64,000 nucleotides of DNA from Clostridium sp. CAG:433. Lineage in GTDB: Bacteria; Bacillota_I; Bacilli_A; RF39; UBA660. The stretch covers positions 52,660-116,659 of the forward strand of contig FR893564.1 of NCBI GenBank assembly GCA_000433675.1. The letters run 5' to 3'. Made by a program: the position numbers and the translations under genes. Shown in pieces: positions 258-63,328 of this stretch; position 1 is the stretch's first letter; each line of letters begins with the position of its first letter. The notes under the pieces were generated by a model. That model was not told the origin of the DNA, searched no databases, and saw only the letters and a program-made list of their open reading frames with translations.

Positions 258-288
258 TTGACAAAATGCTTCGGGGGGGGGGTATACT
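258..288 (+). promoter_or_regulatory. sigma-A-type promoter TTGACA-N19-TATACT with G10 homopolymer in spacer
   Basis: TTGACA at 258-263, ten consecutive G at 273-282, TATACT at 283-288, followed by AGGAGG and ATG at 308. Confidence 0.55.
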
Positions 289-9078: not shown

Positions 9079-10888
9079 AAATAATTTAAATAAGAAAGTA
9101 AAAAAATCTAGTATATTAAAAAGTAAAGTTGGCAAAAATTTAATAGAAATTGCTATTGGAGGAACAGTTGTCTTAACTTTATTTTCTCAATTAACAAATA
9201 TTAAACCTAATGAAATTACTCCAAGAGAAGAATATACAATTTCTCAAATTAATCCAGATAAAATAGAAATAAATGATGATACATATTCTATTACTTATTC
9301 AAATCTTGAGGTACTTGATGGGGTAGTTCTTCCAAATGATATAACAGATTTAGATTTGAGATCAAATCTATTACATGATATAAGTGGTATCAAAAATACT
9401 GATAAAATAGAATGGTTAGATATTGAAAATAATTCTATTGACTCTATTGATTTATCAAAATACCCTAGTTTAGAAAATTTACGTATAGAAGGAAATTACA
9501 ATTTATATACAGAAGATTTAGTAAAATATTGTGAATCAAAAAATATATTTTTAGATATTTCAATGAATGACGTTAATAATGTTGAAGTAATAAAAGGGTA
9601 TTTAAATCAATTAGATATTGCTGATAAGAGTGATTTAGAAAAAGAAAGAATAATATACAAATTTGTATTAGATCATATGGAATATGATAAAAAGGCTTTG
9701 AAGGATGATAACTTAGCTTATAAATATAATGATGAAGTACTTGAAAGTGCAATATCAGGAAAAGGGGTATGTGTTAATTATTGTGCATTATTTAATGTAA
9801 TGTGTGAATTATCCGGAATAAATTCTTTTGAAGTTGATGGATATCTTAAATCAACATTTGGTGCTGGTGGACAACATGCTTGGAATATGGTAGAAATCGA
9901 CGGACAATATTTATTTTGTGATTCAACAAATAGTGATAATTATTCAGGGCACTTTTTTTATAATATTGATGAATTATTTGGAAAAAACTTTGATTCTAAA
10001 TTTAATAAAAAAGATTTAAATTCTATTGGTGTTAAATATCAGGAATATTCAGTTGATAATTACGATTATAAAAATCATAAATTGAGTAAGGACGATAAAA
10101 AATATGAAAAAGAAATAGTGGCAAAAAATAGTACAGTTCTTCATCGTGAAGAATCAAAATACAATGATATGCTTAATAATTATAAAAAATCTGATAAATT
10201 TGATAAGATGATTGATAAAATAATAGAAAAAAAGAATCAAGTAGTAAATTCAATAGATTTAACGAGTGAAAATGCAATTAATGTATATAAATATTTAATG
10301 CTTAGTTTAGGTGTTGGTTCAGCAATTTTACTAGGTAAAAAAAGTAAAGATAAAATAGAAAAAAATATAAAGGAAAATAAAATCAAAAAAGAAAAAGTAA
10401 AACCTGTTAGAGTAAAAAAGGATTTTTTAGATAAAATAAAAGTTGCAAAAAAACAAAAAGAACTAAAAAAAGAACAATCTGAAATTAAAGAAAAAGAAAA
10501 CGTTGTTTTCAATAATCCTAAGATTGATTCTAAAAATGAACCTACATTTGAAAATAATGTTGATTATTACAATGAACTTAAACAGAGTATTGATTATATG
10601 TTACAGGTAGAAAAAAGTATGACAAATAATAGTTTTGTTATTAATAAAACACTTGATGAAGAATTAGAATATTATTTATCTACAATGAATATGTCACCAC
10701 AAGAAAGAGCTTTAACTTCGTTAGTTAGAGATTCAATATTGCCATATGAAATTCCTATTGAGAAGATGACACAAGTTCAAAGAGATTCATTAAAAGCACA
10801 AATTCGATTAGAACAAAATATATCATTATGTATAAAAGAGTTACAAGAACAAGGTTATGAAATTAATACTTCAATAAAAAGAGCATAA
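9065..10888 (+). CDS. leucine-rich-repeat plus transglutaminase-like cysteine protease domain protein with K-rich C-terminal region
   Basis: LRR-like DLRSNLLHDISGIKNTDKIEWLDIENNSIDSIDLS; transglutaminase-core triad context GVCVNYCALF … QHAWNMVEIDGQYLFCDST (Cys/His/Asp); N-terminal TM. Confidence 0.6.
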   Translation: MKINRNNLNKKVKKSSILKSKVGKNLIEIAIGGTVVLTLFSQLTNIKPNEITPREEYTISQINPDKIEINDDTYSITYSNLEVLDGVVLPNDITDLDLRSNLLHDISGIKNTDKIEWLDIENNSIDSIDLSKYPSLENLRIEGNYNLYTEDLVKYCESKNIFLDISMNDVNNVEVIKGYLNQLDIADKSDLEKERIIYKFVLDHMEYDKKALKDDNLAYKYNDEVLESAISGKGVCVNYCALFNVMCELSGINSFEVDGYLKSTFGAGGQHAWNMVEIDGQYLFCDSTNSDNYSGHFFYNIDELFGKNFDSKFNKKDLNSIGVKYQEYSVDNYDYKNHKLSKDDKKYEKEIVAKNSTVLHREESKYNDMLNNYKKSDKFDKMIDKIIEKKNQVVNSIDLTSENAINVYKYLMLSLGVGSAILLGKKSKDKIEKNIKENKIKKEKVKPVRVKKDFLDKIKVAKKQKELKKEQSEIKEKENVVFNNPKIDSKNEPTFENNVDYYNELKQSIDYMLQVEKSMTNNSFVINKTLDEELEYYLSTMNMSPQERALTSLVRDSILPYEIPIEKMTQVQRDSLKAQIRLEQNISLCIKELQEQGYEINTSIKRA

Positions 10889-10899
10889 GCTCTTTTTTA
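10877..10899 (+). terminator. rho-independent terminator overlapping stop codon
   Basis: AAAGAGC-ataa-GCTCTTTTTT. Confidence 0.65.
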
Positions 10900-10927
10900 T
10901 TTGGTTATACTAAAAATGGTGAAGAAT

Positions 10928-11812
10928 ATGAATAATATAATAGTAATTGGTGATTTAAATTATAATTTAAATATTTTTTTAAATACATTTTTAAAAGAAA
11001 ATAATGAGTATACAATAAATAATATAACCAAAAGTATAGGAAATATATTAAATGTACCAATAGTTTTAAGTAAATATGATTTAAATGTATATTATTTTTC
11101 ATGTGTAGGAAATGATATTGAAGGAAAAGAAATAATTAATTTTCTTCATTCAAATAAAATAAAGTCTGATTATGTAAATATATTAAATAAAAAAACAAAT
11201 AATAAATATGTAATTAGAAATACAAAGAATAATTCAAAAACAATTCTTTCTTTAAAAAATAATGATAAATATGAATTAATAAGAAGTATTAATTTTATTC
11301 CAAATGTAGTTTACAGTACAATTTATAATTCAGAGTTTATATTAAATATAAAAAGTAAATTTAGAAGTACAAAGATAATAACTGATTTAAAGGAAATAAG
11401 TGAAGAGTCAATAAAGGTATGTAAATTATCAGACTATGTAATAATTGCACTTAAATATGCACAAGTACTTACAGGAATAAATTTAAATATTGCAAATAAA
11501 AATAGTATAATTGAATTATATAGTAGGACAAAAAGACTATTTTCTGGTAAAATAATAATATATATTGAAGAAGTAGGATGTTTGTTTCAAAATAATAATT
11601 TAATTAGCATAATCCCTAAGATGGGAGATAAAAATAAAGTATCAAAAAGTAGTTATGATATGTTTATTTCTACATTTATATATTGTATTAATAAAGATTA
11701 TACATTAGATAAAACAGTAAAAATATCAACGATATCTAAATTTTTATCAGATAATGGAAAACAAACATTCAATATAAAAGAGGTACTTGATATTTATGAA
11801 AAAAATAATTGA
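10928..11812 (+). CDS. PfkB/ribokinase-like carbohydrate kinase family protein (divergent)
   Basis: IIVIGDLNYN start and CVGNDIEGKEIINFLHSNKIKSDYV resemble the PfkB N-terminus; start codon uncertain (tool ORF begins at a TTG at 10901). Confidence 0.4.
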   Translation: MNNIIVIGDLNYNLNIFLNTFLKENNEYTINNITKSIGNILNVPIVLSKYDLNVYYFSCVGNDIEGKEIINFLHSNKIKSDYVNILNKKTNNKYVIRNTKNNSKTILSLKNNDKYELIRSINFIPNVVYSTIYNSEFILNIKSKFRSTKIITDLKEISEESIKVCKLSDYVIIALKYAQVLTGINLNIANKNSIIELYSRTKRLFSGKIIIYIEEVGCLFQNNNLISIIPKMGDKNKVSKSSYDMFISTFIYCINKDYTLDKTVKISTISKFLSDNGKQTFNIKEVLDIYEKNN

Positions 11813-39607: not shown

Positions 39608-39820
39608 TAACTACACTTTTTTCATATTTTAAGTCAAAAAAAGAGCCGTCCCCCCTGAAGGGCAGCTCTATAAAAAAGAATAAAAAGGGGTTGGCTAGTG
39701 TGATACTAGCACCAATTCGCCATTTGGGAATTGGTAGCATATATATTACTTATAAATAGGTAATTTGTCAAGTACTTTTTAAAAAATATGTTATAATATT
39801 TTTAAAGGATGTGAATAGTT

Positions 39821-54190: not shown

Positions 54191-56926
54191 ATGAACATAT
54201 TAGATTTAATCGATTATTTAAAAAAAATGGGTTATAAATTTCACAATTTAGATACAAATGAACCTTTTTTAAAAATAAATGGAACAAAAATTATTTTTAA
54301 TATAGTTAATAAAAAATATAAAGTAGAGGGTATTTCTGTAGGACATGAAAGAATCCTAGATTTAACAAGGCCTGAAAATTACAGCGTTGTAATGTTTTTG
54401 ATAAAACTATTAAAAAAAGGTTATTCGAAAAATGTAATTTCATTAGAAAAAAGGTGGCAATTAGGACATAATGATAGTGGATCACTTGATGTTATGTTAA
54501 AAAATCCTATTAATAATGATATTTACATGATAGAAATAAAATCTCAATCAGAAATAAATAAATACGTAAATTTAAATAACGAAAAAAAATTAAAACAAGT
54601 TTTTTCTTATGCAATTCAGGAAAAAACAACTAAAATAATATCTTTTTATTCTTATGATTTTTCTGAAAATAAGGATATGTTTTACAATGTATATACAGAA
54701 GATATATTAAAAGAATCCCAAAATGTAGATGACTTTTTTGAAAGATGGAATAAAGTATTTGATAAAAGCGATTATATTTCTAATAACAAAATATTTAATT
54801 CAAGACAATCAGTTAAAAAATATAGTCAATTAGAGAATATTACAAATAATGATACAAAAACCTTATTTAATCAATTTGCGACAATATTAAGATTACATTC
54901 TATTTCTGATAAGCCCAATGCTTTTATTAAGATGATTAATTTGTTTTTGGCTAAAATAAATGATGAAATTACATCTGATAAAAAATTTGAAGTAAAGGAT
55001 AATGCAGGAAATATACATACTTTAAATGGTATGAAGTTCCAATATATTAGGGGTATAGATACTCCAGTATCTTTTATGAAAAGACTTAATGAGTTATATA
55101 AAGAAGGAATGAAAGAATACTTAAATAAAGATGTAATTGATTATAATGATGAAGAAATCGATGATTTATTACCAGACAATGTAGAAAATAGAAAACTTAT
55201 TGTAGAAACATTTGATAATCTAAGACTTAAGAAAAATAATAATTTTACATTTATTGATGTATTTGATGATGAAACATTCTATCTTAATTTTGAGGTTGTA
55301 AAAAGTGTTGTTGAACTTCTTGAAAATTATAGATTTAAGTATGATACGAAACATCAATTTTTAGGAGACTTTTTTGAAGAATTATTAAATACCAGTTTAA
55401 AACAAGAAGCTGGTCAGTTCTTTACACCTTATCCAATTGTTGATTTTATGGTTGATTCATTACCATATGAAAAACTTATTAAGAAGAATGTAGATTTAGG
55501 AAGAATTAATTTTATCCCTTCTGTTATCGATTATGCGTGTGGAGCAGGACACTTTTTAATAAGCAGTATGGCAAAAACACAAGAAATAATTAAAAAAATG
55601 AAAAATGAAAATTATAATTTTAACGAATTACAAACTAAAAAAATAAATGCATATATTGATGATCCATATTCATGGGTAAACAAAAGAAATTGTGTTGGAA
55701 TTGAAAAGGATTACAGACTTGCCAAAACAACTAAAATAGCAACGTTTCTTAATGGAGATGGTAATGCTGAAATAATTAGTGGAGACGGAATTAACAAATT
55801 TAATTCTAAGGATTATGAAAATACAATTTTAAATTCAAGTAAAAATAAAATTGAAAAGTTTGATTTTGTTATATCAAATCCACCATATTCAATAGATGGA
55901 TTTATGAGAAATTTTTCAAAGAATGGAATTACTCCAGAATCAGGCGATTTTTCATTATTAAAAAAATTAAATTATACAGATTCTGCAATAGAAACATTTT
56001 TTGTTGAAAGAACAGAACAACTTTTAGTTAATAATGGATATTGTGCAATTGTATTGCCACAATCTATTCTATCAAATTCAAAATATGAAAATATGAGAAG
56101 ATTCATGTTTAAAAATTTTGAAATAAAAGCTTTAGTTATGACATCAGATATTACTTTTTCAGGAACAACAACATCACCAGTTATATTATTTTTAAAGAAG
56201 ACAAAAGTACCAAATAAGCATTACAAAACATTAGTAGTAGGATCACCAAAATACATGAAACCAACTGGAAGTAAAATGAAAGATCAGGAAATTAAATTTC
56301 TTGGTTATGAATTTAGTACAAATAGGGCAAAGTCAGGAATTACTATAAAAGATAATTCAATATTATCAAAAATATCACCTATAATAAATAATTTTATTTC
56401 TAACGATGAAATAAATATACCTAAAAATTTATCTAATTTAGTGTATAGTAAATATTTTGATGATATATTATTAAATTCTTCTAAAGAATATTGCGGAGAT
56501 ATATATCCAAAATATAATCTTAATGAGGGTAAACCATTATCTAATTATTGCAAGATTAATTGTAGAACAACAGAGGATTTCGATAAAATGCCATCTGATT
56601 ATCTTGAAATAGGGGGCTTATCTACATTACAAACTAGTGAAAAAAAGAAAACAACTAATAGATTCTGCAAAAAAGGTGATATTCTAGTCTCTAGTTTATG
56701 TCCAAAAAGAAATCAAATTAAAATAGCAGATAAAGATTATATGGTTACAACAGCAATACATGTATTATCTGATTTTGAAAGTGAAGAGATAAAAGAAAAA
56801 ATTTATGAAAAAATTAGATCTGATGAAGTTTTAGAACAAATGAATTCTTTACTTGATGGTTTTAAAATCACTTATGCTAAAATTTCAGATGCAAATTTAA
56901 TTAATAATATATTAATTAATATATAA
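54191..56926 (+). CDS. Type IIG restriction-modification enzyme (fused PD-(D/E)xK nuclease plus gamma-class N6-adenine methyltransferase plus target-recognition domain)
   Basis: N-terminal D…EIK (SLDVMLKN…IYMIEIKSQ), GQFFTPYPIVDFMV, VIDYACGAGHFLIS (motif I), FVISNPPYS (motif IV), about 340-aa C-terminal region; 911 aa. Confidence 0.7.
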   Translation: MNILDLIDYLKKMGYKFHNLDTNEPFLKINGTKIIFNIVNKKYKVEGISVGHERILDLTRPENYSVVMFLIKLLKKGYSKNVISLEKRWQLGHNDSGSLDVMLKNPINNDIYMIEIKSQSEINKYVNLNNEKKLKQVFSYAIQEKTTKIISFYSYDFSENKDMFYNVYTEDILKESQNVDDFFERWNKVFDKSDYISNNKIFNSRQSVKKYSQLENITNNDTKTLFNQFATILRLHSISDKPNAFIKMINLFLAKINDEITSDKKFEVKDNAGNIHTLNGMKFQYIRGIDTPVSFMKRLNELYKEGMKEYLNKDVIDYNDEEIDDLLPDNVENRKLIVETFDNLRLKKNNNFTFIDVFDDETFYLNFEVVKSVVELLENYRFKYDTKHQFLGDFFEELLNTSLKQEAGQFFTPYPIVDFMVDSLPYEKLIKKNVDLGRINFIPSVIDYACGAGHFLISSMAKTQEIIKKMKNENYNFNELQTKKINAYIDDPYSWVNKRNCVGIEKDYRLAKTTKIATFLNGDGNAEIISGDGINKFNSKDYENTILNSSKNKIEKFDFVISNPPYSIDGFMRNFSKNGITPESGDFSLLKKLNYTDSAIETFFVERTEQLLVNNGYCAIVLPQSILSNSKYENMRRFMFKNFEIKALVMTSDITFSGTTTSPVILFLKKTKVPNKHYKTLVVGSPKYMKPTGSKMKDQEIKFLGYEFSTNRAKSGITIKDNSILSKISPIINNFISNDEINIPKNLSNLVYSKYFDDILLNSSKEYCGDIYPKYNLNEGKPLSNYCKINCRTTEDFDKMPSDYLEIGGLSTLQTSEKKKTTNRFCKKGDILVSSLCPKRNQIKIADKDYMVTTAIHVLSDFESEEIKEKIYEKIRSDEVLEQMNSLLDGFKITYAKISDANLINNILINI

Positions 56927-56958
56927 AAAATAACTAGTTCTTTTTTGAACTAGTTATT

Positions 56959-57519
56959 TTAATAATCAAATAGTTTACAATTATAGTCAAATAATAAATC
57001 ATTAATAGTAGATATTTTATAAATTTTATTAATAAAACAAAATCTAATTATTAAATCATAACGATTATTCTTTGGTAATGAATACGATGCACTATTTAAA
57101 AGTGTATCAATTTCTTGTTCATTAAGTTCAAGTGATAATCCTAAAAGAATAACAGTTTCTTTACTTGGATGATATTTTTTATCATTTCTTATTTTTGAAA
57201 ATAATCTTCTATCAATATGTACTTTATTATAAACATCACTATCTTTTAAATTTCTATCATCTATCATTTTAAAAAGAGTTGTTTGAAAGTCACTATATTT
57301 GTTTTCATTGTTTTCAATATATTTATCTATACTAGAATCATTTATTTCATTAGTAATATCAATTGATGAAATACTGTAGTATTCATTTTCTTCAAATTCA
57401 TCATTTTTAGATACGTCTTTTATTCTTGTTATAAAGTTTTTAAAAAGTTTTTTTCTGTTACTATTTTTGTATAAATTTTCTTCTAAATATTGTTTAAGTT
57501 CTTCTTTCATATATATCAT
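56959..57519 (-). CDS. hypothetical protein
   Basis: 186-aa ORF convergent with the RM gene; no motif recognised. Confidence 0.4.
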   Translation of the reverse strand: MIYMKEELKQYLEENLYKNSNRKKLFKNFITRIKDVSKNDEFEENEYYSISSIDITNEINDSSIDKYIENNENKYSDFQTTLFKMIDDRNLKDSDVYNKVHIDRRLFSKIRNDKKYHPSKETVILLGLSLELNEQEIDTLLNSASYSLPKNNRYDLIIRFCFINKIYKISTINDLLFDYNCKLFDY

Positions 57520-57626
57520 CCCCTTTCATGAACTATTATACCATATAGTATATATTTGTCGCTTATTTGGCGACCAATTTTAAATTTTATTTTGATAATA
57601 TATTGGTGAAAAGAGGAGTGAGAATA

Positions 57627-58217
57627 ATGAAAAAAGAAGTAACAGATATTGTTTTTTTACTTGATAGAAGCGGTTCAATGTCAGGATTGGAAAATGATAC
57701 CATAAAAAGTTATAATAATTATTTAGAAAGGATGAAAAGTCAAAATGTAAGAGTAACAACAGTATTATTTGATGATAAGTATGAAATGATTACAGAACAA
57801 ACAGATATTAAAAATGTAAAAAAGATGGATAAAAGAACATATTACACAAGAGGAAGTACTGCACTATTAGATGCGATTGGTAAGACTATAAAATACTTAG
57901 ATAATATAAATCCAAAAAAAGTTTTATTTATTATAACAACAGATGGATATGAAAATTCATCTATAGAGTATAGTAAGAATATGATAAAAAAGTTAATTGA
58001 AAGTCATAATAATTGGGAATTTATATTTTTAGGTGCTGATATTGATTCATATACAGAGGCTTGTTCTATAGGTATAAAAGAAAATAGAATTTCAAATTAT
58101 TGTAAATCTAAAAATGGGGTAAAAAAAGTTTTTGATAGGTTAAAAAATTTATCAGAGATGTATTACGAAAGTAATTGCATTTCAGAAGATTGGAATGATG
58201 GATTAGAGGATGATTAA
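57627..58217 (+). CDS. von Willebrand factor A domain protein (TerY-like, about 196 aa)
   Basis: MIDAS motif DIVFLLDRSGSMSG plus downstream T and D (ITTDGYENS); RBS AGAGGAG. Confidence 0.7.
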   Translation: MKKEVTDIVFLLDRSGSMSGLENDTIKSYNNYLERMKSQNVRVTTVLFDDKYEMITEQTDIKNVKKMDKRTYYTRGSTALLDAIGKTIKYLDNINPKKVLFIITTDGYENSSIEYSKNMIKKLIESHNNWEFIFLGADIDSYTEACSIGIKENRISNYCKSKNGVKKVFDRLKNLSEMYYESNCISEDWNDGLEDD

Positions 58218-58360
58218 AATATAAGGAAAAACAAAATCTCAATAAAATGAGATTTTTTTAGTATTTTTATATAATGTAGTAATATTGTAGTAAAATTGTA
58301 GAAATATGTTGACAATGAATTTTTCTGGTGATATATTTAATTCAGGAGGTTGAGAAATTT

Positions 58361-58798
58361 ATGGGTAATGTAAGTGAAAAAATGACAAAAGAAGAATTAT
58401 TGGAGTTATTTAGTAAGTATGATTTAGTTGAGTTAACTGCGATGAATACAGTTTTAAATTATGCAAAAGATGTTGATACAATGGAAGCAGAAACTGTAAT
58501 TAGAAAAGTATTTAATGATGCGGATGATGAAGTTAGTGAAGATTATGGACTTTTTATGCGTCATTATACACCTTCAATGTCTATGATCAATAAAAAATCA
58601 GATTTATTAACTAAGAAAGAGGCAAAATATTTATTAGAATTTGCAAATGATGCTAAAAAATATTTTGAAGATATTAAATTATCTAAACCTGATGCTAATG
58701 TTGAACATGAATTACTTGAACTATACAAAATAACAGATTCATTAAATTCAATAGCATCAAGAAATGTTATAAAATTAAATTTAAGAAAAAAGGAATAA
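58361..58798 (+). CDS. hypothetical protein (146 aa)
   Basis: ATG 58361 with AGGAGG upstream; helical, no motif recognised; 19 nt upstream of the DinJ-NUDIX gene. Confidence 0.45.
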   Translation: MGNVSEKMTKEELLELFSKYDLVELTAMNTVLNYAKDVDTMEAETVIRKVFNDADDEVSEDYGLFMRHYTPSMSMINKKSDLLTKKEAKYLLEFANDAKKYFEDIKLSKPDANVEHELLELYKITDSLNSIASRNVIKLNLRKKE

Positions 58799-58817
58799 TG
58801 TATTGTGAGGTAAAAAA

Positions 58818-59408
58818 ATGGAAAATAAAACAAGCGCTATTAACATACAAGTAGATAGTAATGTAAAAAAAGAAGCAACAGACGTATTAACTGAACTTGG
58901 TTTATCAATGAGTTCTGCAATAAATTTATTTTTAAAACAAGTTGTTAAAAAAAATGGTATTCCATTTGAAATAACTAATGTATCACCTAAGAAAAAAATA
59001 CTAGATGTTGTGTGTGGATTAATTATGAAAGATGGGAAATGCTTAATTGCACAAAGAAAAAAAGAGGATCATTTATATGGTAAATGGGAATTTCCAGGTG
59101 GAAGAAGAGTAGGTCTTGAAGATGAAAAGAAAACTCTTGATAGAGCATTTACTGAAGTACTTGGAATTAATACAAAAATAAATGATTATATTACACATAG
59201 TATATGTGAATATCCAGGTCATATAGTAGACTTAAAATTATATGAATGTGATTATATAAGTGGTGATTTTAAATTAAATATTCATTCAGATTATAAATGG
59301 GTAGCAATTGAAGAACTATTAGATTATGATTTAGCAGATGCAGACGTTATCTTAACTAAATTCTTAATAAAAAAATATATAGAAGATGCTAAAGAAAATA
59401 ATAAATAA
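58818..59408 (+). CDS. RelB/DinJ antitoxin-like domain fused to MutT/NUDIX-like domain
   Basis: N-terminal INIQVDSNVKKEATDVLTELGLSMSSAINLFLKQVV (DinJ/RelB ribbon-helix-helix type); GKWEFPGGRRVGLEDEKKTLDRAFTEVLGI matches the MutT Nudix box but with RAF…EV in place of REL…EE. Confidence 0.55.
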   Translation: MENKTSAINIQVDSNVKKEATDVLTELGLSMSSAINLFLKQVVKKNGIPFEITNVSPKKKILDVVCGLIMKDGKCLIAQRKKEDHLYGKWEFPGGRRVGLEDEKKTLDRAFTEVLGINTKINDYITHSICEYPGHIVDLKLYECDYISGDFKLNIHSDYKWVAIEELLDYDLADADVILTKFLIKKYIEDAKENNK

Positions 59409-59422
59409 AGGAGTGCATAAAA

Positions 59423-59728
59423 ATGGTGGATTTTAGAAAATTACAAAAAGATGTTTATCAAAATAAAGTTGATAAAGGATTTAATACAACAGATGTAAAT
59501 AAGGAGTTTTGTTTAACATACGCAGAACTTGCAGAAGCATATGATGCTTGGCTTAAGAAAAAAGATGATGTTGGCGAAGAACTTGCAGATGTTGTTATAT
59601 TTACAATGGGATTATCAGAAATATTAGGTGTAGACTTAGAAAGTGAAATAATTAATAAAATTAATAAAAACTCTAAAAGAGTTTATAAGACTGTAGATGG
59701 AGTTTTAATGAAAGTAAAATCAGAATAA
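59423..59728 (+). CDS. MazG-like nucleotide pyrophosphohydrolase domain protein (small)
   Basis: 101 aa; LTYAELAEAYDAW…EELADVVIFTMGLSEILGVDL typical MazG/NTP-PPase helices. Confidence 0.55.
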   Translation: MVDFRKLQKDVYQNKVDKGFNTTDVNKEFCLTYAELAEAYDAWLKKKDDVGEELADVVIFTMGLSEILGVDLESEIINKINKNSKRVYKTVDGVLMKVKSE

Positions 59729-59794
59729 TATAAAATAAATTAAACAAAAAAATATAAAATATTAAAATTAGTAGAAGAATAGAGAAAAATTACT

Positions 59795-60406
59795 ATGGAT
59801 GAATTAAAATTTGATAAAATAGTTAAATCTAATTTAGAAGATATTGCAATAATTGAATATGGAATAATTGAAGGAAATAATACAATTGTTTTTATAAAAT
59901 CTGGACAAAATGGTTCAATATATGGTTATAACAATAAATATATTAAAATGGCTAAAAGATTAAATAAAAAATATAAGTGTACAGTAATATGTTCATCAAA
60001 TCCATTTGATGGAAACAATCCTCTTGATAATGCATTTACTGTAATAGAAAAATATACATCAAAGTTTGAAGATTATAAAGTGTATTATTTAGGTTTTTCA
60101 AATGGTGCATTGATAGGGGCATATTTTGGTATAAATTATCCTAAAATAAAAAGAATGTTACTTGTAAATATGCCTTTAATTTATGATATAAATTTAATAA
60201 AAAATAATCTTAATAATTTTAATAATGAAAAAATAACAATTGTATATGGATCACTTGATTATTCTATTAATTCACTTGAAAATATTAAGGATATTAAGTC
60301 AAATAGAATGGATATTAAAGTTGTTCCAAATGAAGATCATTATTTTAGTAAAGATGAAGAAGATTTTTACTCTTTACCTGAAAAATATTTGTTTTATAAA
60401 GAATAA
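59795..60406 (+). CDS. alpha/beta-hydrolase-like protein
   Basis: GFSNG (GxSxG nucleophile elbow) after beta-strand YYLGF; 203 aa. Confidence 0.45.
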   Translation: MDELKFDKIVKSNLEDIAIIEYGIIEGNNTIVFIKSGQNGSIYGYNNKYIKMAKRLNKKYKCTVICSSNPFDGNNPLDNAFTVIEKYTSKFEDYKVYYLGFSNGALIGAYFGINYPKIKRMLLVNMPLIYDINLIKNNLNNFNNEKITIVYGSLDYSINSLENIKDIKSNRMDIKVVPNEDHYFSKDEEDFYSLPEKYLFYKE

Positions 60407-60511
60407 AACTTATGAATATGAAAATAGAACCAAAAATTCTATTTTTTTAATATAAAAAATATATTCCAAAAATATTGTTTAATCATAAACTATATTGGGA
60501 GAGTAATATAT

Positions 60512-61509
60512 ATGAATAACATAAATAAGGATTTTTGTTGTGATGATTTTTCAAAGGCAAAGAAAATACTAGAAGGCGCAAATAGTTGTAAATATTGTTA
60601 TGTATTAGGTCCAACAGGACCACAAGGTGGTCCAGGCCCAATTGGTCCACAAGGAGAAATCGGTCCAAAAGGTGACATGGGTCTTCAAGGACCTAAGGGT
60701 GATAGAGGAGATATTGGTCCAACAGGACCTAAAGGAGAAAATGGACCTACTACAATTACAGTAGAATCAACTTCTTTAGCAGAAGTAACAAATACTGGAA
60801 CCAATAAGGATGTTATTTTAAATTTCAAAATACCAAAAGGCGCAACTGGTGAAATGTGCCCTAAGGGTGAAAAAGGCGATATAGGACCTAGAGGACTTCC
60901 TGGTGAAATAGGTATTAGTCAGGCTATTACAATAGATGGGACAGAAACAATAGAACCAAACGAACTTGCAGAAGTGCAAGATGATTTTGAAAGTAATATT
61001 CATCATTTGACATTCTATATACCAAAAGGAGAAAAGGGTGAAAAGGGTGATCAAGGAGAAGTGGGACCAAGAGGACCCGCAGGACCTGCCCCAGATGTTG
61101 CATATGGTGAAAGATATTTAGATTTAGAACAAGAATTAGTTTTAACAAAGGATCGAGATACAGTAGTTCCTTTAAATTTAGGGGGACCTGCATTTTTACA
61201 TATTTTGATACTGAAAACACTATTGAAATAAAACAAAATGGTTTCTATTTAATATCATATTTCTTTAGTGCATCACCTAGTGAGGACTGTAAGATAACAG
61301 CTATGGTAAAATATAATGATTTATTATTCCAGGCATGTAATGTAACAACTGACATGAAAGCAAATACTATTGGAAATATTACTAATACAATAATAGGAGC
61401 ATTAAATGATGGAGACAAGGTTACATTATGTGTAAGGTCATCAGTAAATACAACATTAACATTTGATGGAAGCACTAGCGCTAATCTAGTATTAGTAAGA
61501 ATTCACTAA
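60512..61509 (+). pseudogene. BclA-like collagen-triple-helix-repeat protein, frameshifted between collagen region and C1q/TNF-like C-terminal domain
   Basis: GPTGPQGGPGPIGPQGEIGPKGDMGLQGPKGDRGDIGPTGPKGENGP and GEKGEKGDQGEVGPRGPAGP repeats in frame A (60512..61231); C-terminal domain (…FDTENTIEIKQNGFYLISYFFSASPSEDCKITAMVKYNDLL…VRIH) continues in the -1 frame to 61509; switch region contains G5 and T5 runs. Confidence 0.5.
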
Positions 61510-61671
61510 TTAAAAGGCTTATATAATGAAATATAAGTCTTCTTTTTTTGCAATTTGATTTTGTATTTTTTTAAGCATATGATTATTGTTTTTATAATAA
61601 TCATAATATGTACCCTTGATTATTTTATTAATTAATGTTATTATAAATACGCTTTTATAAGGGGGATTTTT

Positions 61672-62694
61672 ATGGGAATAATATCTAATTTTGAAGGACA
61701 AAGTCAAATAAGAAATTTATTAAATAATGAGAATTATGATAAAGAAAAAGCGGATCAATTCTTAAAAAATAATGCTAGTATACCTATGTCTTCAGAATTA
61801 TTCTATGATACAGATAGATATATCAGAATGCAACAAAGTAAAATACAAGAAACGGATGCAGTATTTAAGTCCCCAAAATTATCACCAGAATTAAAAAAGG
61901 TTTTAATGTGTGAAAAGTTACCATTTAGAACTAAGACAAAAGATATGATAAGATATAATTTGATACAGGATTATCTAGATCGTGTCCTTTATACAACACA
62001 TTCTTCATGCATATATGATAATATAAAATATTATAATGCTGTTCCTGAAAGAAATATTCAATATGTTAGAGGTTATTTTGAATATAATGGAATAGATCTA
62101 AATAATAAAAAATCAATCGGGGATATATTTTGCAATTATGGTAATCCATATAAAGATCCAGATGGTATAAAACGCGATTTTGAAAAAATTGATAACCTTA
62201 TTGAAGATAAAAGAAATAGTGCATTAGGAAGATATGGAGAACTTGAAATATATAATATGTTAAAAGAAAATTTAAAACTAGAAGAAGAAATAAAGTGGGT
62301 TTCCAAAGATGTTGGAGATTTATTTGGCTATGATATTATAATTAGTAATGTAATGACAGGTGAAGTTAAATTAATCGAAGTTAAGACATCCTATAATAAT
62401 GGAGGCGAATTAACTTTATCTTTAAATGAATATAATAAACTACAAGAATCAATTAAAAATGGTATTGAATATGAAATGTACAAAGTTGAATATGTGAATG
62501 GTGAAAGAAAATTATTTAAAGTAACACATGATCATGATGAATATTATACTGTAGAAAATTTAATTACTGGCATCAAGAGTAATATGTTCTTTGATCAAAG
62601 TAGAATTAATCCAGAAAAAAAAGGAATATGCTTAAAACTTTCTGATTTGCCTTTAGTAGCATACTCTAATTATGTACCTAGAAAGGAACTATAA
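61672..62694 (+). CDS. hypothetical protein with C-terminal DUF3883-like (PD-(D/E)xK-fold) domain
   Basis: …KWVSKDVGDLFGYDIIISNVMTGEVKLIEVKTS… (GYDI…IEVK signature); paralog of the ORF starting at 63341. Confidence 0.45.
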   Translation: MGIISNFEGQSQIRNLLNNENYDKEKADQFLKNNASIPMSSELFYDTDRYIRMQQSKIQETDAVFKSPKLSPELKKVLMCEKLPFRTKTKDMIRYNLIQDYLDRVLYTTHSSCIYDNIKYYNAVPERNIQYVRGYFEYNGIDLNNKKSIGDIFCNYGNPYKDPDGIKRDFEKIDNLIEDKRNSALGRYGELEIYNMLKENLKLEEEIKWVSKDVGDLFGYDIIISNVMTGEVKLIEVKTSYNNGGELTLSLNEYNKLQESIKNGIEYEMYKVEYVNGERKLFKVTHDHDEYYTVENLITGIKSNMFFDQSRINPEKKGICLKLSDLPLVAYSNYVPRKEL

Positions 62695-62695
62695 T

Positions 62696-63328
62696 ATGGA
62701 AAAACAAGTATTATATCATATACATAAAATCGAGGGTAAGGATAGTACGGGTAAGTTTTGGAAAGAAAATAAAGAGATAAAAGTGGATGATAAGTTTAAA
62801 AATGGAATGCTTAAAAGATATAATGAATTTACAACTAAAACTTCAATTTTAGATGTAGATGGCAATATAATTGATAAGAATATACATGATTATTTAGCAA
62901 GAGTTTTATTTAAATTAAATAGTGGTAGAACTTTTTCAAAACAAGAACTAGAAGAAATTTTAAAATTATCATATCGTGCTTCCTATTATGGAAATATGTT
63001 TAAAAGAGAAACAGCATTAGAAAATTATAGAAAAGATAATGTTAGTACATTGCCCAGTAGATTACATACAATTTATTTAACTGATGAAAAAGGAATAGAT
63101 TATTGGGTAAATGCTTTACAAACAGATAATTATACACTATATAGAGTAGAAGCAAGTGGTGAAATATTTAAAACAAATGAACAATTAATACCAGAAGAGA
63201 TGTTAAGTTATAAAGATGTTTATGAAAGTGCATATAATTATTGGCATCCAAACTTTAAACATGTACCAGATTATACAAATGAATATTTGGTAAAAGGAAA
63301 AGTAAAAGTACTTGAAAAAATAAAATAG
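62696..63328 (+). CDS. hypothetical protein
   Basis: ATG 62696 just after stop of the upstream gene; no motif recognised. Confidence 0.4.
   Translation: MEKQVLYHIHKIEGKDSTGKFWKENKEIKVDDKFKNGMLKRYNEFTTKTSILDVDGNIIDKNIHDYLARVLFKLNSGRTFSKQELEEILKLSYRASYYGNMFKRETALENYRKDNVSTLPSRLHTIYLTDEKGIDYWVNALQTDNYTLYRVEASGEIFKTNEQLIPEEMLSYKDVYESAYNYWHPNFKHVPDYTNEYLVKGKVKVLEKIK

What the first reader, a model, noticed from the sequence alone, without database searches (positions are those of the whole stretch)
60512..61509. BclA-like collagen-repeat gene interrupted by a -1 frame change within homopolymer runs
Frame A encodes an N-terminal region, two blocks of GXX collagen-like triplets, and the start of a C-terminal domain, then terminates at 61231. 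The rest of a C1q/TNF-like C-terminal domain, typical of Bacillus and Clostridium exosporium BclA-like glycoproteins (…FDTENTIEIKQNGFYLISYFF…LVLVRIH), is open in the -1 frame from about 61111 to 61509. The overlap where both frames are open contains a G5 run (about 61179) and a T5 run (about 61190). This could be a pseudogene or a sequencing error at a homopolymer. It could also be slipped-strand phase variation or programmed frameshifting of a surface protein.
Basis: seen in the sequence. Interest (0 to 1): 0.5.

Follow-up and report, generated by a model that had tools for sequence, protein, structure and literature searches.

The report
Frameshifted BclA-like collagen gene, common allele
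A spore-surface-type collagen-like gene of an uncultured human gut bacterium is cut in two by loss of one T from a TTTTTT run; the broken form is real and is the commonest allele worldwide, one of at least five independent ways this dispensable gene has been knocked out.

Summary
ORF 60512-61231 (239 aa) encodes a Cys-rich N-terminus, three collagen Gly-X-Y blocks and the first strands of a BclA-type C1q/TNF jelly-roll domain. The other 103 codons run in the -1 frame to 61509.

The lesion is the T5 run at 61193-61197, not the G5 run. Intact alleles at the same locus have T6 and read ...GGPAFFTYFDTENT..., as all homologs do.

It is not a sequencing error. The exact truncated product is indexed in 581 blocks of the assembly collection, including NCBI records for Clostridium sp. 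CAG:433. Studies that yield T5 in some samples yield T6 in others.

Intact alleles are rare: 32 blocks for the commonest one. In an unselected DNA-pattern scan, none of 8 complete genes was intact. Other strains carry different lesions:
- an A8-to-A7 frameshift at codons 16-18
- TCA-to-TAA at codon 14
- a T3-to-T2 frameshift
- a 4-bp deletion

Sister species carry decayed remnants.

Programmed frameshifting has no support: no canonical slippery heptamer, no downstream RNA structure, and in-frame orthologs. Reversible phase variation is neither shown nor excluded, because recombination in this population masks recurrent slippage.

Best reading: a segregating loss-of-function allele of a repeatedly inactivated accessory surface-protein gene. 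Interest is modest.

The parts
60497..60503 (+). Ribosome-binding site GGGAGAG, 8 nt before the ATG
   Evidence: Read from the sequence. The 5' region is conserved in all related loci.
60512..61231 (+). Frame-0 ORF of the broken gene: a 239-aa product ending in the out-of-frame tail LHILILKTLLK
   Evidence: The exact product is indexed in 581 blocks of the collection and counted on 316 contigs, including NCBI CDD29855.1 from Clostridium sp. CAG:433.
60512..60607 (+). N-terminal 32-aa Cys-rich region (MNNINKDFCCDDFSKAKKILEGANSCKYCYVL). It has no hydrophobic signal-peptide-like stretch.
   Evidence: It is conserved in full-length homologs P0006, P0014, P0015, P0019 and P0020.
60551..60553 (+). 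Codon 14 (TCA, Ser). It is TAA (stop) in other strains (L080, L117-L121).
60559..60566 (+). A-tract AAAGAAAA (codons 16-18), in frame here and interrupted by G. Other strains have A8 (in frame) or A7 (frameshift to MNNINKDFCCDDFSKAKKY*).
60608..60751 (+). Collagen-like block 1, 16 Gly-X-Y triplets
   Evidence: Pfam Collagen match at residues 33-79. Coordinates.
60752..60838 (+). Non-collagen beta module 1 (TITVESTSLAEVTNTGTNKDVILNFKIPK). An 18-nt GQTETV insertion/deletion polymorphism lies after 60763.
60839..60910 (+). Collagen-like block 2, 8 triplets. The Gly position of the third triplet is Cys (TGC 60857-60859). The commonest intact allele has GGC (Gly).
60911..61027 (+). Non-collagen beta module 2, a diverged repeat of module 1. 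Three strands in the model, pLDDT about 75.
61028..61090 (+). Collagen-like block 3, 7 triplets
61091..61195 (+). First 35 residues of the BclA_C / C1q-TNF-like domain, read in frame 0. This covers the first three beta strands only.
61177..61179 (+). TTT run, intact here. It is T2 in L115 and L116, an independent -1 frameshift that creates TAG.
61193..61197 (+). The lesion: a T5 run where intact alleles have T6 (GCA TTT TTT ACA = A F F T)
61229..61231 (+). Premature TAA stop of frame 0
61198..61509 (+). The remaining 103 codons and stop of the BclA_C domain in the -1 frame (TYFDTENT...LVLVRIH*), about eight beta strands. Gene callers annotate only its last 68 aa (61303-61509).
   Evidence: The 68-aa piece is counted on 652 contigs, including CDD29856.1 and OKZ82775.1.
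61514..61549 (+). Intrinsic terminator after the full-length gene's stop: an 11-bp hairpin (61514-61541) followed by CUUUUUUU
   Evidence: -10.1 kcal/mol, z -2.67. No comparable structure follows the premature stop (61228-61300, z -0.77).

Best explanation
**What it is.** The window carries a genuine, heritable loss-of-function allele of a BclA-like collagen gene. The organism is an uncultured, 25% G+C human-gut bacterium that NCBI names Clostridium sp. CAG:433. Assigning it to the RF39 / CAG-433 group of Bacilli is an inference from names.

**How it arose.** One T was lost from a TTTTTT run, GCA TTT TTT ACA becoming GCA TTT TTA CAT. That is an ordinary replication-slippage deletion in a genome with 5.5 A/T runs of six or more bases per kb.

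**Consequence.** Translation leaves the frame at codon 229 and stops 11 codons later. The product keeps the N-terminus, the three collagen blocks and three strands of the C-terminal jelly roll. It loses about eight strands of that domain. In BclA this domain nucleates trimerisation, so a folded collagen trimer is unlikely; this step is inferred.

**Population picture.** The allele is the majority form of the gene, but it is not fixed. Intact T6 alleles persist at low frequency at the same locus. Other strains have inactivated the gene differently:
- A8 to A7 near the start
- a nonsense codon at position 14
- T3 to T2
- a 4-bp deletion

Sister species hold decayed remnants. The gene is therefore dispensable, or its loss is advantageous, in the gut, and it is being lost repeatedly.

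**Shown:** the lesion, that it is real, its frequency, the independent lesions, and the fold. **Inferred:** loss of function, and the selective reason for it.
For: **Lesion and repair.** Adding one T gives a 332-aa ORF whose junction equals that of all homologs. A contig 99% identical in DNA has T6. The DNA table of 46 loci in the first set shows T5 or T6 at the same position, with GGGGGA unchanged in intact alleles of the same strain group.

**Real, not error.**
- The exact 239-aa product is indexed in 581 blocks, from SPAdes, MEGAHIT and Logan assemblies.
- It is counted on 316 contigs and is in NCBI as CDD29855.1.
- The 68-aa tail ORF is counted on 652 contigs, including a second MAG (OKZ82775.1).
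- The same study series give T5 in some samples and T6 in others: MERR22 L139 versus L104, and SAYO22 L106 versus L080.

**Intact alleles at the same locus.** P0122 (332 aa) is listed in 32 blocks with identical neighbours. P0128 (338 aa) is also intact.

**Independent lesions.**
- TAA at codon 14 in L080 and L117-L121.
- A7 in L090-L094, L122-L124, L129 and L137.
- T3 to T2 in L115 and L116.
- A 4-bp AACT deletion in L135.
- Decayed copies in the species-representative MAGs UMGS855 (L007) and UMGS1045 (L006), with in-frame stops and Gly-to-Asp, Asn, Ser or Val changes in the triplets.

**Unselected sample.** A DNA-pattern scan of a separate metagenome collection found 10 loci. Seven have T5 (five complete genes, two partial). 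The three T6 loci are two A7 frameshifts and one 4-bp deletion. None of the 8 complete genes is intact.

**A second degenerative change.** Gly to Cys sits at a Gly-X-Y glycine position in the window allele.

**Reversion looks rare.** The exact repaired versions of the window, A7, S14*, T2 and two other T5 alleles are absent from about 15 billion proteins.

**Fold.** The C-terminal domain has pLDDT above 90 and target TM 0.81 to BclA 1WCK. The shift falls after strand 3 of about 11.

**Transcription unit.** The terminator follows the full-length stop, not the premature one.

**Precedents.** Most clinical C. difficile isolates carry bclA1 truncated by a premature stop (PMC7893008). M3 group A Streptococcus carries a nonsense mutation in scl1 (PMC5005324).
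Against: **No sign of age.** The 312-nt out-of-frame tail shows no secondary decay in 17 T5 alleles, only one singleton nonsynonymous change. It is identical to the tail of some intact alleles. The lesion is therefore young, or the tail is still useful.

**High frequency for a young null allele.** Hitchhiking, selection for loss, or recurrent mutation would be needed to explain it.

**T5 and T6 share backgrounds.** They occur on several gene haplotypes, and on two N-terminal backgrounds identical at the protein level: P0136/P0122 and P0137/P0128. A reversible switch would also produce this pattern.

**Homopolymer bias.** Three of the five lesions within the species are single-base losses in homopolymers.

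**No expression data.** No read-level, expression or protein data were available. Loss of function is inferred from the fold only.
Confidence: 0.7

Rival explanations
1. Reversible slipped-strand phase variation. The T5/T6 run, and in other strains the A7/A8 run near the start codon, would act as contingency tracts. They would switch a surface or spore collagen-like fibre off and on, for example under immune or phage pressure.
For: - The tract length is polymorphic exactly at the frame-determining run.
- T5 and T6 are intermingled on a tree built from the flanks.
- Both states occur on two N-terminal backgrounds identical at the protein level: P0136 (44 contigs) with P0122 (20), and P0137 (36) with P0128 (4).
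- A second homopolymer 48 nt into the gene is A7 or A8 in other strains.
- The T5 tail is undecayed.
- The same genome has a G9-G11 variable tract in a promoter spacer elsewhere.
- There is a precedent: CAAAA repeats switch the collagen-like Scl2 of group A Streptococcus (PMC5005324).
Against: - T6 is short and unremarkable here: 352 A/T runs of six or more in 64 kb.
- The four-gamete test gives no excess. The T run is incompatible with 1 of 2 SNPs within 150 nt and 5 of 10 at 150-500 nt. The SNP-SNP background is 33% and 40%, so recombination alone explains the mosaic.
- The T5/T6 pair that matches at protein level differs at 4-8 sites in the DNA, so it is not a simple switch.
- No repaired partner exists for the dominant T5 haplotype, which is indexed in 581 blocks, nor for the A7, S14* or T2 alleles.
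- Two lesions, the nonsense codon and the 4-bp deletion, are not tract changes. This points to tolerated or selected loss rather than a switch.
- In the window the 5' A-tract is interrupted by G.
Confidence: 0.17
2. Programmed recoding. A fraction of ribosomes would slip -1 on A_UUU_UUA, or RNA polymerase would slip on the T run, so that T5 strains still make a full-length protein (...GGPAFLTYFDTE...).
For: - UUU_UUA is the 3' six-seventh of the HIV-type U_UUU_UUA heptamer (own knowledge).
- A Shine-Dalgarno-like AGGGGG lies upstream at 61180-61185.
- The downstream frame is intact to the normal stop, and the terminator lies after it.
Against: - The heptamer is not canonical: its first base is A.
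- No stimulatory structure lies downstream (61199-61290, z -0.47).
- The Shine-Dalgarno-like element is only 6 nt from the heptamer. It is the same GGGGGA Gly-Gly codon pair in in-frame T6 alleles, so it did not co-evolve with the shift.
- Homologs in other strains and species are in frame or broken elsewhere. No arrangement is conserved.
- A five-base run is far shorter than the runs known to support transcriptional slippage (own knowledge).
Confidence: 0.04
3. The truncated 239-aa protein is itself the selected, functional product: a short isoform that keeps the N-terminal anchor and collagen blocks without the globular head.
For: - The T5 allele is at very high frequency, and its 239-aa product is highly uniform.
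- There is a precedent: the small truncated BclA1 polypeptide of C. difficile still localises to the spore surface (PMC7893008).
Against: - Other common alleles destroy the N-terminus instead, through A7 or TAA at codon 14, so no common retained part is being preserved.
- The window allele also has Cys in place of a triplet glycine.
- Without the trimerising head, collagen folding is doubtful (inference from BclA biology, own knowledge).
Confidence: 0.06
4. Sequencing or assembly error at a homopolymer in this one record.
For: One added base restores a perfect ORF.
Against: - The identical frameshifted product is indexed in 581 blocks of independent assemblies from different pipelines and years and in NCBI records.
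- It also appears in an independently held metagenome collection.
- T6 alleles are assembled correctly in other samples of the same studies.
Confidence: 0.01

Closest known systems
BclA / BclA1-3 exosporium collagen-like glycoproteins of Bacillus anthracis and Clostridioides difficile (Pfam Collagen + BclA_C)
   Same: - Same architecture: a short N-terminal region, Gly-X-Y repeats and a C-terminal C1q/TNF-like jelly roll.
- Target TM 0.81 to 1WCK and 2Z5W.
- No signal peptide.
- Repeat blocks vary in length between strains.
- Natural truncated alleles are common. C. difficile bclA1 carries a premature stop in most clinical isolates (PMC7893008).
   Different: - Only about 16% sequence identity in the head.
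- The BclA_C score is below Pfam's cut-off: 27.8 bits against 38.
- Three short collagen blocks are interrupted by two beta modules, rather than one long block.
- The N-terminus is Cys-rich and does not carry the BclA targeting motif.
- The host is an uncultured RF39-type gut bacterium. Its sporulation is only predicted at order level (PMC10868615).
- Location on a spore is untested.
Scl1/Scl2 collagen-like adhesins of group A Streptococcus
   Same: - Collagen-like surface proteins whose expression is decided by frame. Scl2 is switched by the number of CAAAA repeats after the start codon.
- scl1.3 of M3 strains carries a lineage-wide nonsense mutation (PMC5005324).
- The tract near the 5' end, A7/A8 in other strains here, is placed similarly.
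   Different: - NCBIfam Scl1, Scl2 and Lcl models score 48-63 bits against cut-offs of 325-500, through the collagen repeats only.
- There is no signal peptide or LPXTG anchor.
- The globular domain is C-terminal, not N-terminal.
- The tract here is a short mononucleotide run, and reversibility has not been shown.
Collagen-like phage tail fibres with C1q/TNF-like tips
   Same: - PHROG tail-fibre families match at E 1e-12 to 1e-18.
- Foldseek also finds phage tail or spike knobs, 9K09, 9EUL and 8KE9.
   Different: - The PHROG matches cover the collagen repeats.
- There are no phage structural genes nearby.
- The DNA pattern is absent from 2.9 million viral contigs.
- Close DNA matches are absent from phage and plasmid records.
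- More distant homologs lie beside rpsB-tsf, prfA and a D-Ala-D-Ala carboxypeptidase gene.
Programmed -1 frameshift sites (dnaX A_AAA_AAG; HIV U_UUU_UUA)
   Same: The site has UUU_UUA at the shift point and a Shine-Dalgarno-like element upstream.
   Different: - The first base of the heptamer is wrong.
- The spacing to the Shine-Dalgarno-like element is 6 nt.
- There is no downstream structure.
- The arrangement is not conserved, and in-frame alleles exist.

Membership tests
BclA-like collagen protein (Pfam Collagen PF01391 + BclA_C PF18573) | Collagen Gly-X-Y repeat region | tested here: met
   PF01391 scores 50.3 bits against a cut-off of 27.2. There are three blocks of 16, 8 and 7 triplets.
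BclA-like collagen protein (Pfam Collagen PF01391 + BclA_C PF18573) | C-terminal BclA_C domain by sequence | tested here: inconclusive
   The repaired protein scores 27.8 bits (E 2.6e-6) against a curated cut-off of 38, over residues 219-331. Precomputed Pfam hits list PF18573 for most homologs.
BclA-like collagen protein (Pfam Collagen PF01391 + BclA_C PF18573) | C-terminal C1q/TNF jelly-roll fold like the BclA head | tested here: met
   The model of allele P0001 has pLDDT above 90 in the head. Foldseek finds BxpB and ExsFA (E 4e-9) and BclA 1WCK/2Z5W (target TM 0.81, rmsd 2.8 A), then C1q and TNF heads. In the window itself the domain is split by the frameshift.
BclA-like collagen protein (Pfam Collagen PF01391 + BclA_C PF18573) | N-terminal exosporium-targeting motif, and location on the spore surface of a spore former | not testable with these tools
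   The N-terminus is a different, Cys-rich sequence. It resembles the BclA motif recalled from memory only in 'LGPT'. Order RF39 is predicted to be capable of sporulation, with species that differ (PMC10868615). This species was not examined.
Simple-sequence contingency (phase-variable) locus | A repeat tract in the ORF whose length sets the frame, with length polymorphism among strains | tested here: met
   T5 versus T6 at 61193-61197. Other strains have A7 versus A8 at the position of 60559-66.
Simple-sequence contingency (phase-variable) locus | A tract longer than expected for the genome | tested here: not met
   The window holds 352 A/T runs of six or more in 64 kb (5.5 per kb) and 25 runs of eight or more.
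Simple-sequence contingency (phase-variable) locus | Recurrent, reversible switching: both states on one genetic background beyond what recombination explains | tested here: inconclusive
   Both states occur on two protein backgrounds, but the DNA haplotypes differ. Incompatibility of the T run with nearby SNPs (1 of 2; 5 of 10) is no higher than the SNP-SNP background of 33-40%. Repaired partners of the main alleles are absent.
Simple-sequence contingency (phase-variable) locus | Tract-length heterogeneity among reads within a population | not testable with these tools
   Only consensus contigs were available.
Programmed -1 ribosomal frameshift | Canonical X_XXY_YYZ slippery heptamer | tested here: not met
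   The site reads A_UUU_UUA in frame 0.
Programmed -1 ribosomal frameshift | Stimulatory RNA structure 5-9 nt downstream | tested here: not met
   61199-61290 folds at -12.4 kcal/mol, z -0.47; 61 of 200 shuffles fold as well.
Programmed -1 ribosomal frameshift | Two-frame arrangement conserved among orthologs | tested here: not met
   Orthologs are in frame (T6) or broken at other places.
Pseudogene / segregating loss-of-function allele | Disruption of a domain that is intact in relatives, plus independent inactivating lesions in the same gene | tested here: met
   Within the species there are the T5, A7, TAA14, T2 and 4-bp deletion lesions. Sister species carry decayed remnants. The window allele has Gly to Cys in a triplet.
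Pseudogene / segregating loss-of-function allele | Absence of a functional product | not testable with these tools
   No transcript or protein data. This is inferred from the loss of about eight of about eleven strands of the head.

The most novel reading that the evidence does not exclude
The gene could be a true contingency locus of an uncultured, genome-reduced RF39 gut bacterium. Short homopolymers (T5/6 here, A7/8 near the start in other strains) would switch a BclA-like surface or spore fibre off and on. Most cells in human guts would sit in the OFF state. This would belong to a wider homopolymer-based phase-variation repertoire that also includes the G9-G11 promoter-spacer tract at 273-282.
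Probability: 0.15. Interest if true: 0.5.

Novelty: new member of a known kind. Interest (0 to 1): 0.3.

Why it matters
- **Annotation.** The two 'hypothetical proteins' deposited for this organism (CDD29855.1, 239 aa; CDD29856.1, 68 aa) are halves of one BclA-like gene and should be annotated as a frameshifted gene.
- **Population biology.** A surface or spore collagen-like protein of a prevalent but uncultured human-gut lineage is knocked out in the great majority of strains by at least five independent lesions. C. difficile bclA1 and streptococcal scl1 show the same pattern. It suggests the fibre is costly or targeted in the host (by immunity or phage), or that spore-surface functions are eroding in a lineage undergoing reductive evolution.
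- **What it does not do.** It reveals no new mechanism.

Tried and rejected
- **Phage and plasmid DNA searches.** blastn of the locus against phage and plasmid records found only short matches over the collagen repeats.
- **PDB sequence profile search.** It was swamped by collagen chains and said nothing about the head. The fold search was needed instead.
- **Tree of flanking DNA.** T5 and T6 are intermingled. I rejected this as evidence of recurrent slippage once the four-gamete control showed 33-63% SNP-SNP incompatibility at the same distances.
- **dN/dS on the out-of-frame tail.** Only one polymorphism appears among 17 T5 alleles, so there is no power.
- **ON/OFF partners by exact protein look-up.** Two were found at protein level, but their DNA haplotypes differ. 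None was found for the other alleles.
- **Paralog as a donor.** No second copy lies in the window.
- **Prophage origin.** The neighbours are a DNA methylase, vWA, RelB-NUDIX, MazG-like, NOV_C and DUF2441, an accessory or defence-type island with no virion genes. The DNA pattern is absent from viral contigs.
- **Internal TTG start.** The 'MQGDP...' N-termini of many database homologs could suggest a real shorter isoform. I rejected this. In every such locus I read (L080, L090, L117, L122), the normal ATG and N-terminal coding sequence lie upstream and are broken by TAA or A7. AGGA abuts the TTG with no spacing.
- **TGA recoding in L006.** I considered this and set it aside, because the copy also has a broken start and Gly-to-Val changes.
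Full report
**1. The observation**

The region was read and translated in all frames. An ORF starts at ATG 60512, preceded by GGGAGAG, and stops at TAA 61229-61231 (239 aa). The frame offset by +2 (that is, -1) is open from 61111 to the stop at 61507-61509. It encodes TYFDTENTIEIKQNGFYLISYFF...LVLVRIH.

The protein has three collagen-like blocks, not two. They hold 16, 8 and 7 Gly-X-Y triplets at 60608-60751, 60839-60910 and 61028-61090. Two related 30-39-residue beta modules separate them, and a 32-residue Cys-rich N-terminus without a hydrophobic stretch precedes them.

Adding one T to the T5 run gives a 332-aa protein. Pfam Collagen passes its cut-off (50.3 against 27.2 bits). A sub-threshold BclA_C match (27.8 against 38 bits) covers residues 219-331 and so bridges the two frames.

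**2. Where the lesion is**

A search of 5.8 billion proteins found thousands of homologs with the same architecture. All close ones read ...LNLGGPAFFTYFDTENT... across the junction, exactly what T6 gives.

A contig 99% identical in DNA (L080) has GCATTTTTTACA where the window has GCATTTTTACA. In 46 loci fetched at this stage, the only frame-relevant difference at this point is T5 versus T6. Intact alleles of the same strain group keep GGGGGA, so the G run is not involved.

**3. Not a sequencing error**

- The exact 239-aa product, with its out-of-frame tail LHILILKTLLK, is indexed in 581 blocks of the assembly collection.
- It is counted on 316 contigs and is in NCBI as CDD29855.1 of Clostridium sp. 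CAG:433.
- The 68-aa ORF that gene callers find in the orphaned tail is counted on 652 contigs. These include CDD29856.1 and OKZ82775.1 from a second MAG.
- The contigs come from SPAdes, MEGAHIT and Logan assemblies of many cohorts.
- Study series that give T5 in one sample give T6 in another: MERR22 L139 versus L104, and SAYO22 L106 versus L080.
- An independent DNA-pattern scan of a separate metagenome collection found the allele again.

**4. What the gene is**

An AlphaFold model of the in-frame allele P0001 gives an all-beta C-terminal domain with pLDDT above 90. Foldseek places it with the Bacillus exosporium proteins BxpB and ExsFA. It also matches the BclA head (1WCK, 2Z5W; target TM 0.81, rmsd 2.8 A), followed by C1q and TNF heads and a few phage fibre knobs.

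The frameshift falls after the third of about eleven strands. The T5 product therefore lacks most of the head. In BclA the head drives trimerisation (own knowledge of BclA, not tested here).

The matches to NCBIfam Scl1, Scl2 and Lcl models and to PHROG tail-fibre families are collagen-repeat matches far below the curated cut-offs.

The gene is not in a prophage. Its neighbours are a DNA methylase, a vWA protein, a RelB-NUDIX fusion, a MazG-like protein, NOV_C and DUF2441. The DNA pattern is absent from viral contigs. More distant homologs sit among housekeeping genes; in one locus two copies lie 5 kb apart, with a GT2-TPR glycosyltransferase gene between them.

The organism has about 25% G+C. 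Related loci come from MAGs labelled uncultured Bacilli or Tenericutes. GTDB has a family CAG-433 in order RF39 (PMC8035907). That order is predicted to be capable of sporulation, with species that differ (PMC10868615). A spore-surface role is therefore plausible but untested.

**5. Population picture**

Intact T6 alleles exist at the same syntenic locus but are rare. P0122 (332 aa) is listed in 32 blocks. It differs from the repaired window protein only by Gly in place of Cys116. P0128 (338 aa) is on a few contigs.

Other strains are broken elsewhere:

- TCA to TAA at codon 14 (L080, L117-L121).
- An A8 tract at codons 16-18 shortened to A7 (L090-L094, L122-L124, L129, L137).
- T3 to T2, 14 nt upstream of the T run, giving TAG (L115, L116).
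- A 4-bp AACT deletion at codon 86 (L135).

Many database 'proteins' that begin MQGDP... are gene-caller restarts at an internal TTG downstream of the 5' lesions. This was seen in all four such loci I read (L080, L090, L117, L122).

The representative MAGs of two sister species (UMGS855, UMGS1045) hold decayed copies. These have in-frame stops, a 3' deletion or a broken start, and Gly-to-Asp, Asn, Ser or Val substitutions in the triplets.

In the unselected pattern scan, seven of ten loci were T5 (five complete genes, two partial). The three T6 loci were two A7 frameshifts and one 4-bp deletion. None of the eight complete genes was intact.

The window allele also carries Cys in place of a triplet glycine (60857-60859).

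**6. Phase variation?**

*For.*
- T5 and T6 are intermingled on a tree of flanking DNA.
- Both occur on two protein-identical N-terminal backgrounds.
- The out-of-frame tail is undecayed.
- Three of the five lesions are single-base losses in homopolymers.

*Against, or neutral.*
- A/T runs of six or more occur 5.5 times per kb in this genome.
- The population recombines heavily. The T run is incompatible with 1 of 2 SNPs within 150 nt and 5 of 10 at 150-500 nt, no more than ordinary SNP pairs at the same distances (33% and 40%).
- The protein-identical T5/T6 pair differs at 4-8 sites in the DNA.
- No repaired partner of the dominant haplotype, or of the A7, TAA or T2 alleles, exists among about 15 billion proteins.
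- Two lesions are not tract changes at all.

I conclude that reversible switching is possible but not demonstrated. Only read-level data can settle it.

**7. Programmed recoding?**

- The site reads A_UUU_UUA, which is not a canonical heptamer.
- The downstream 92 nt fold no better than shuffles (z -0.47).
- The upstream AGGGGG is only 6 nt away and is equally present in in-frame alleles.
- Orthologs do not conserve the two-frame arrangement.
- A hairpin directly upstream of the T run (61163-61191, z -2.6) was noted. It is not a known stimulator.
- The terminator lies after the full-length stop (61514-61549). That fits a recently broken single gene.

**8. Comparison and verdict**

The gene works like, and by fold belongs with, BclA-type collagen-like proteins. 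Sequence membership in BclA_C is borderline, and spore location is untested.

The situation closely parallels two known cases. In C. difficile, most clinical isolates carry a premature stop in bclA1 (PMC7893008). In streptococci, scl1 carries a lineage-wide nonsense mutation and scl2 is controlled by repeat number (PMC5005324).

The finding is a real, well-supported, but ordinary kind of event: a segregating frameshift allele of a repeatedly inactivated accessory surface-protein gene. Its main value is in annotation and population genetics. Interest is 0.3. The most novel surviving reading is genuine homopolymer phase variation in an uncultured RF39 bacterium, at about 0.15 probability.

Noticed in passing
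window 258-288 (G10 at 273-282), upstream of the ATG at 308: A G10 tract is the longest G/C run in this 25% G+C window (the only other run of six or more is a C6 at 39650-39655). It sits in the spacer of a promoter-like TTGACA-N19-TATACT, ahead of a strong RBS and a 218-aa protein of no known family (MDRFERAYK...). In four metagenome contigs encoding the identical protein the tract is G10, G9, G10 and G11. This is a better candidate for phase variation than the T5 run.
   Followed up: partly
window 60559-60566 and 60551-60553; loci L080, L090-L094, L117-L124, L129, L137: A second mutational hot spot lies at the 5' end of the same gene. The window has AAAGAAAA, in frame. Other strains have A8 together with a TAA at codon 14, or A7, which is a frameshift. 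Database proteins from these strains start at an internal TTG ('MQGDP...'), a gene-caller artefact.
   Followed up: yes
window 60857-60859; P0002-type alleles (L090-L094): Two different Gly-to-Cys substitutions occupy the glycine positions of adjacent triplets of collagen block 2. The window type reads GEM-CPK-GEK and the P0002 type reads GPK-CEK-GEI. The window-type Cys also occurs in an otherwise intact allele (P0128). This may be decay, or an interchain disulfide.
   Followed up: no
window 60752-61027; L089, L105-L116, L117-L124: The gene is modular and mosaic. An 18-nt GQTETV indel lies after 60763. Some strains have whole-block deletions, with gene lengths of 759, 845/846 and 981 nt against 998-1017. 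Two non-collagen beta modules are diverged repeats of each other.
   Followed up: partly
window 54191-63328; loci L090, L117, L122: The gene lies at the edge of a hypervariable accessory or defence-type island. In the window the island holds an N6-methylase, vWA, RelB-NUDIX, MazG-like, NOV_C and DUF2441. Other strains have a GIY-YIG/Schlafen-like helicase, or an IceA-like nuclease plus a C5-methylase, upstream. In those strains DHFR-TetR-ABC transporter follows directly downstream.
   Followed up: partly
window 61163-61191: A hairpin (-11 kcal/mol, z -2.6) ends one base before the T run, giving a terminator-like motif inside the gene. Its significance is unknown.
   Followed up: no
window 58818-59408: A single 196-aa ORF fuses a RelB antitoxin domain (residues 6-61) to a NUDIX hydrolase domain (65-177), followed by a MazG-like gene. 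The fusion is conserved in all syntenic contigs.
   Followed up: no
L004 6001-7170 and 12388-13167 (reverse strand), 10148-11245: A related MAG carries two collagen/BclA_C-like paralogs about 5 kb apart, with a GT2-TPR glycosyltransferase gene between them. This recalls the glycosyltransferases associated with BclA glycoproteins.
   Followed up: no
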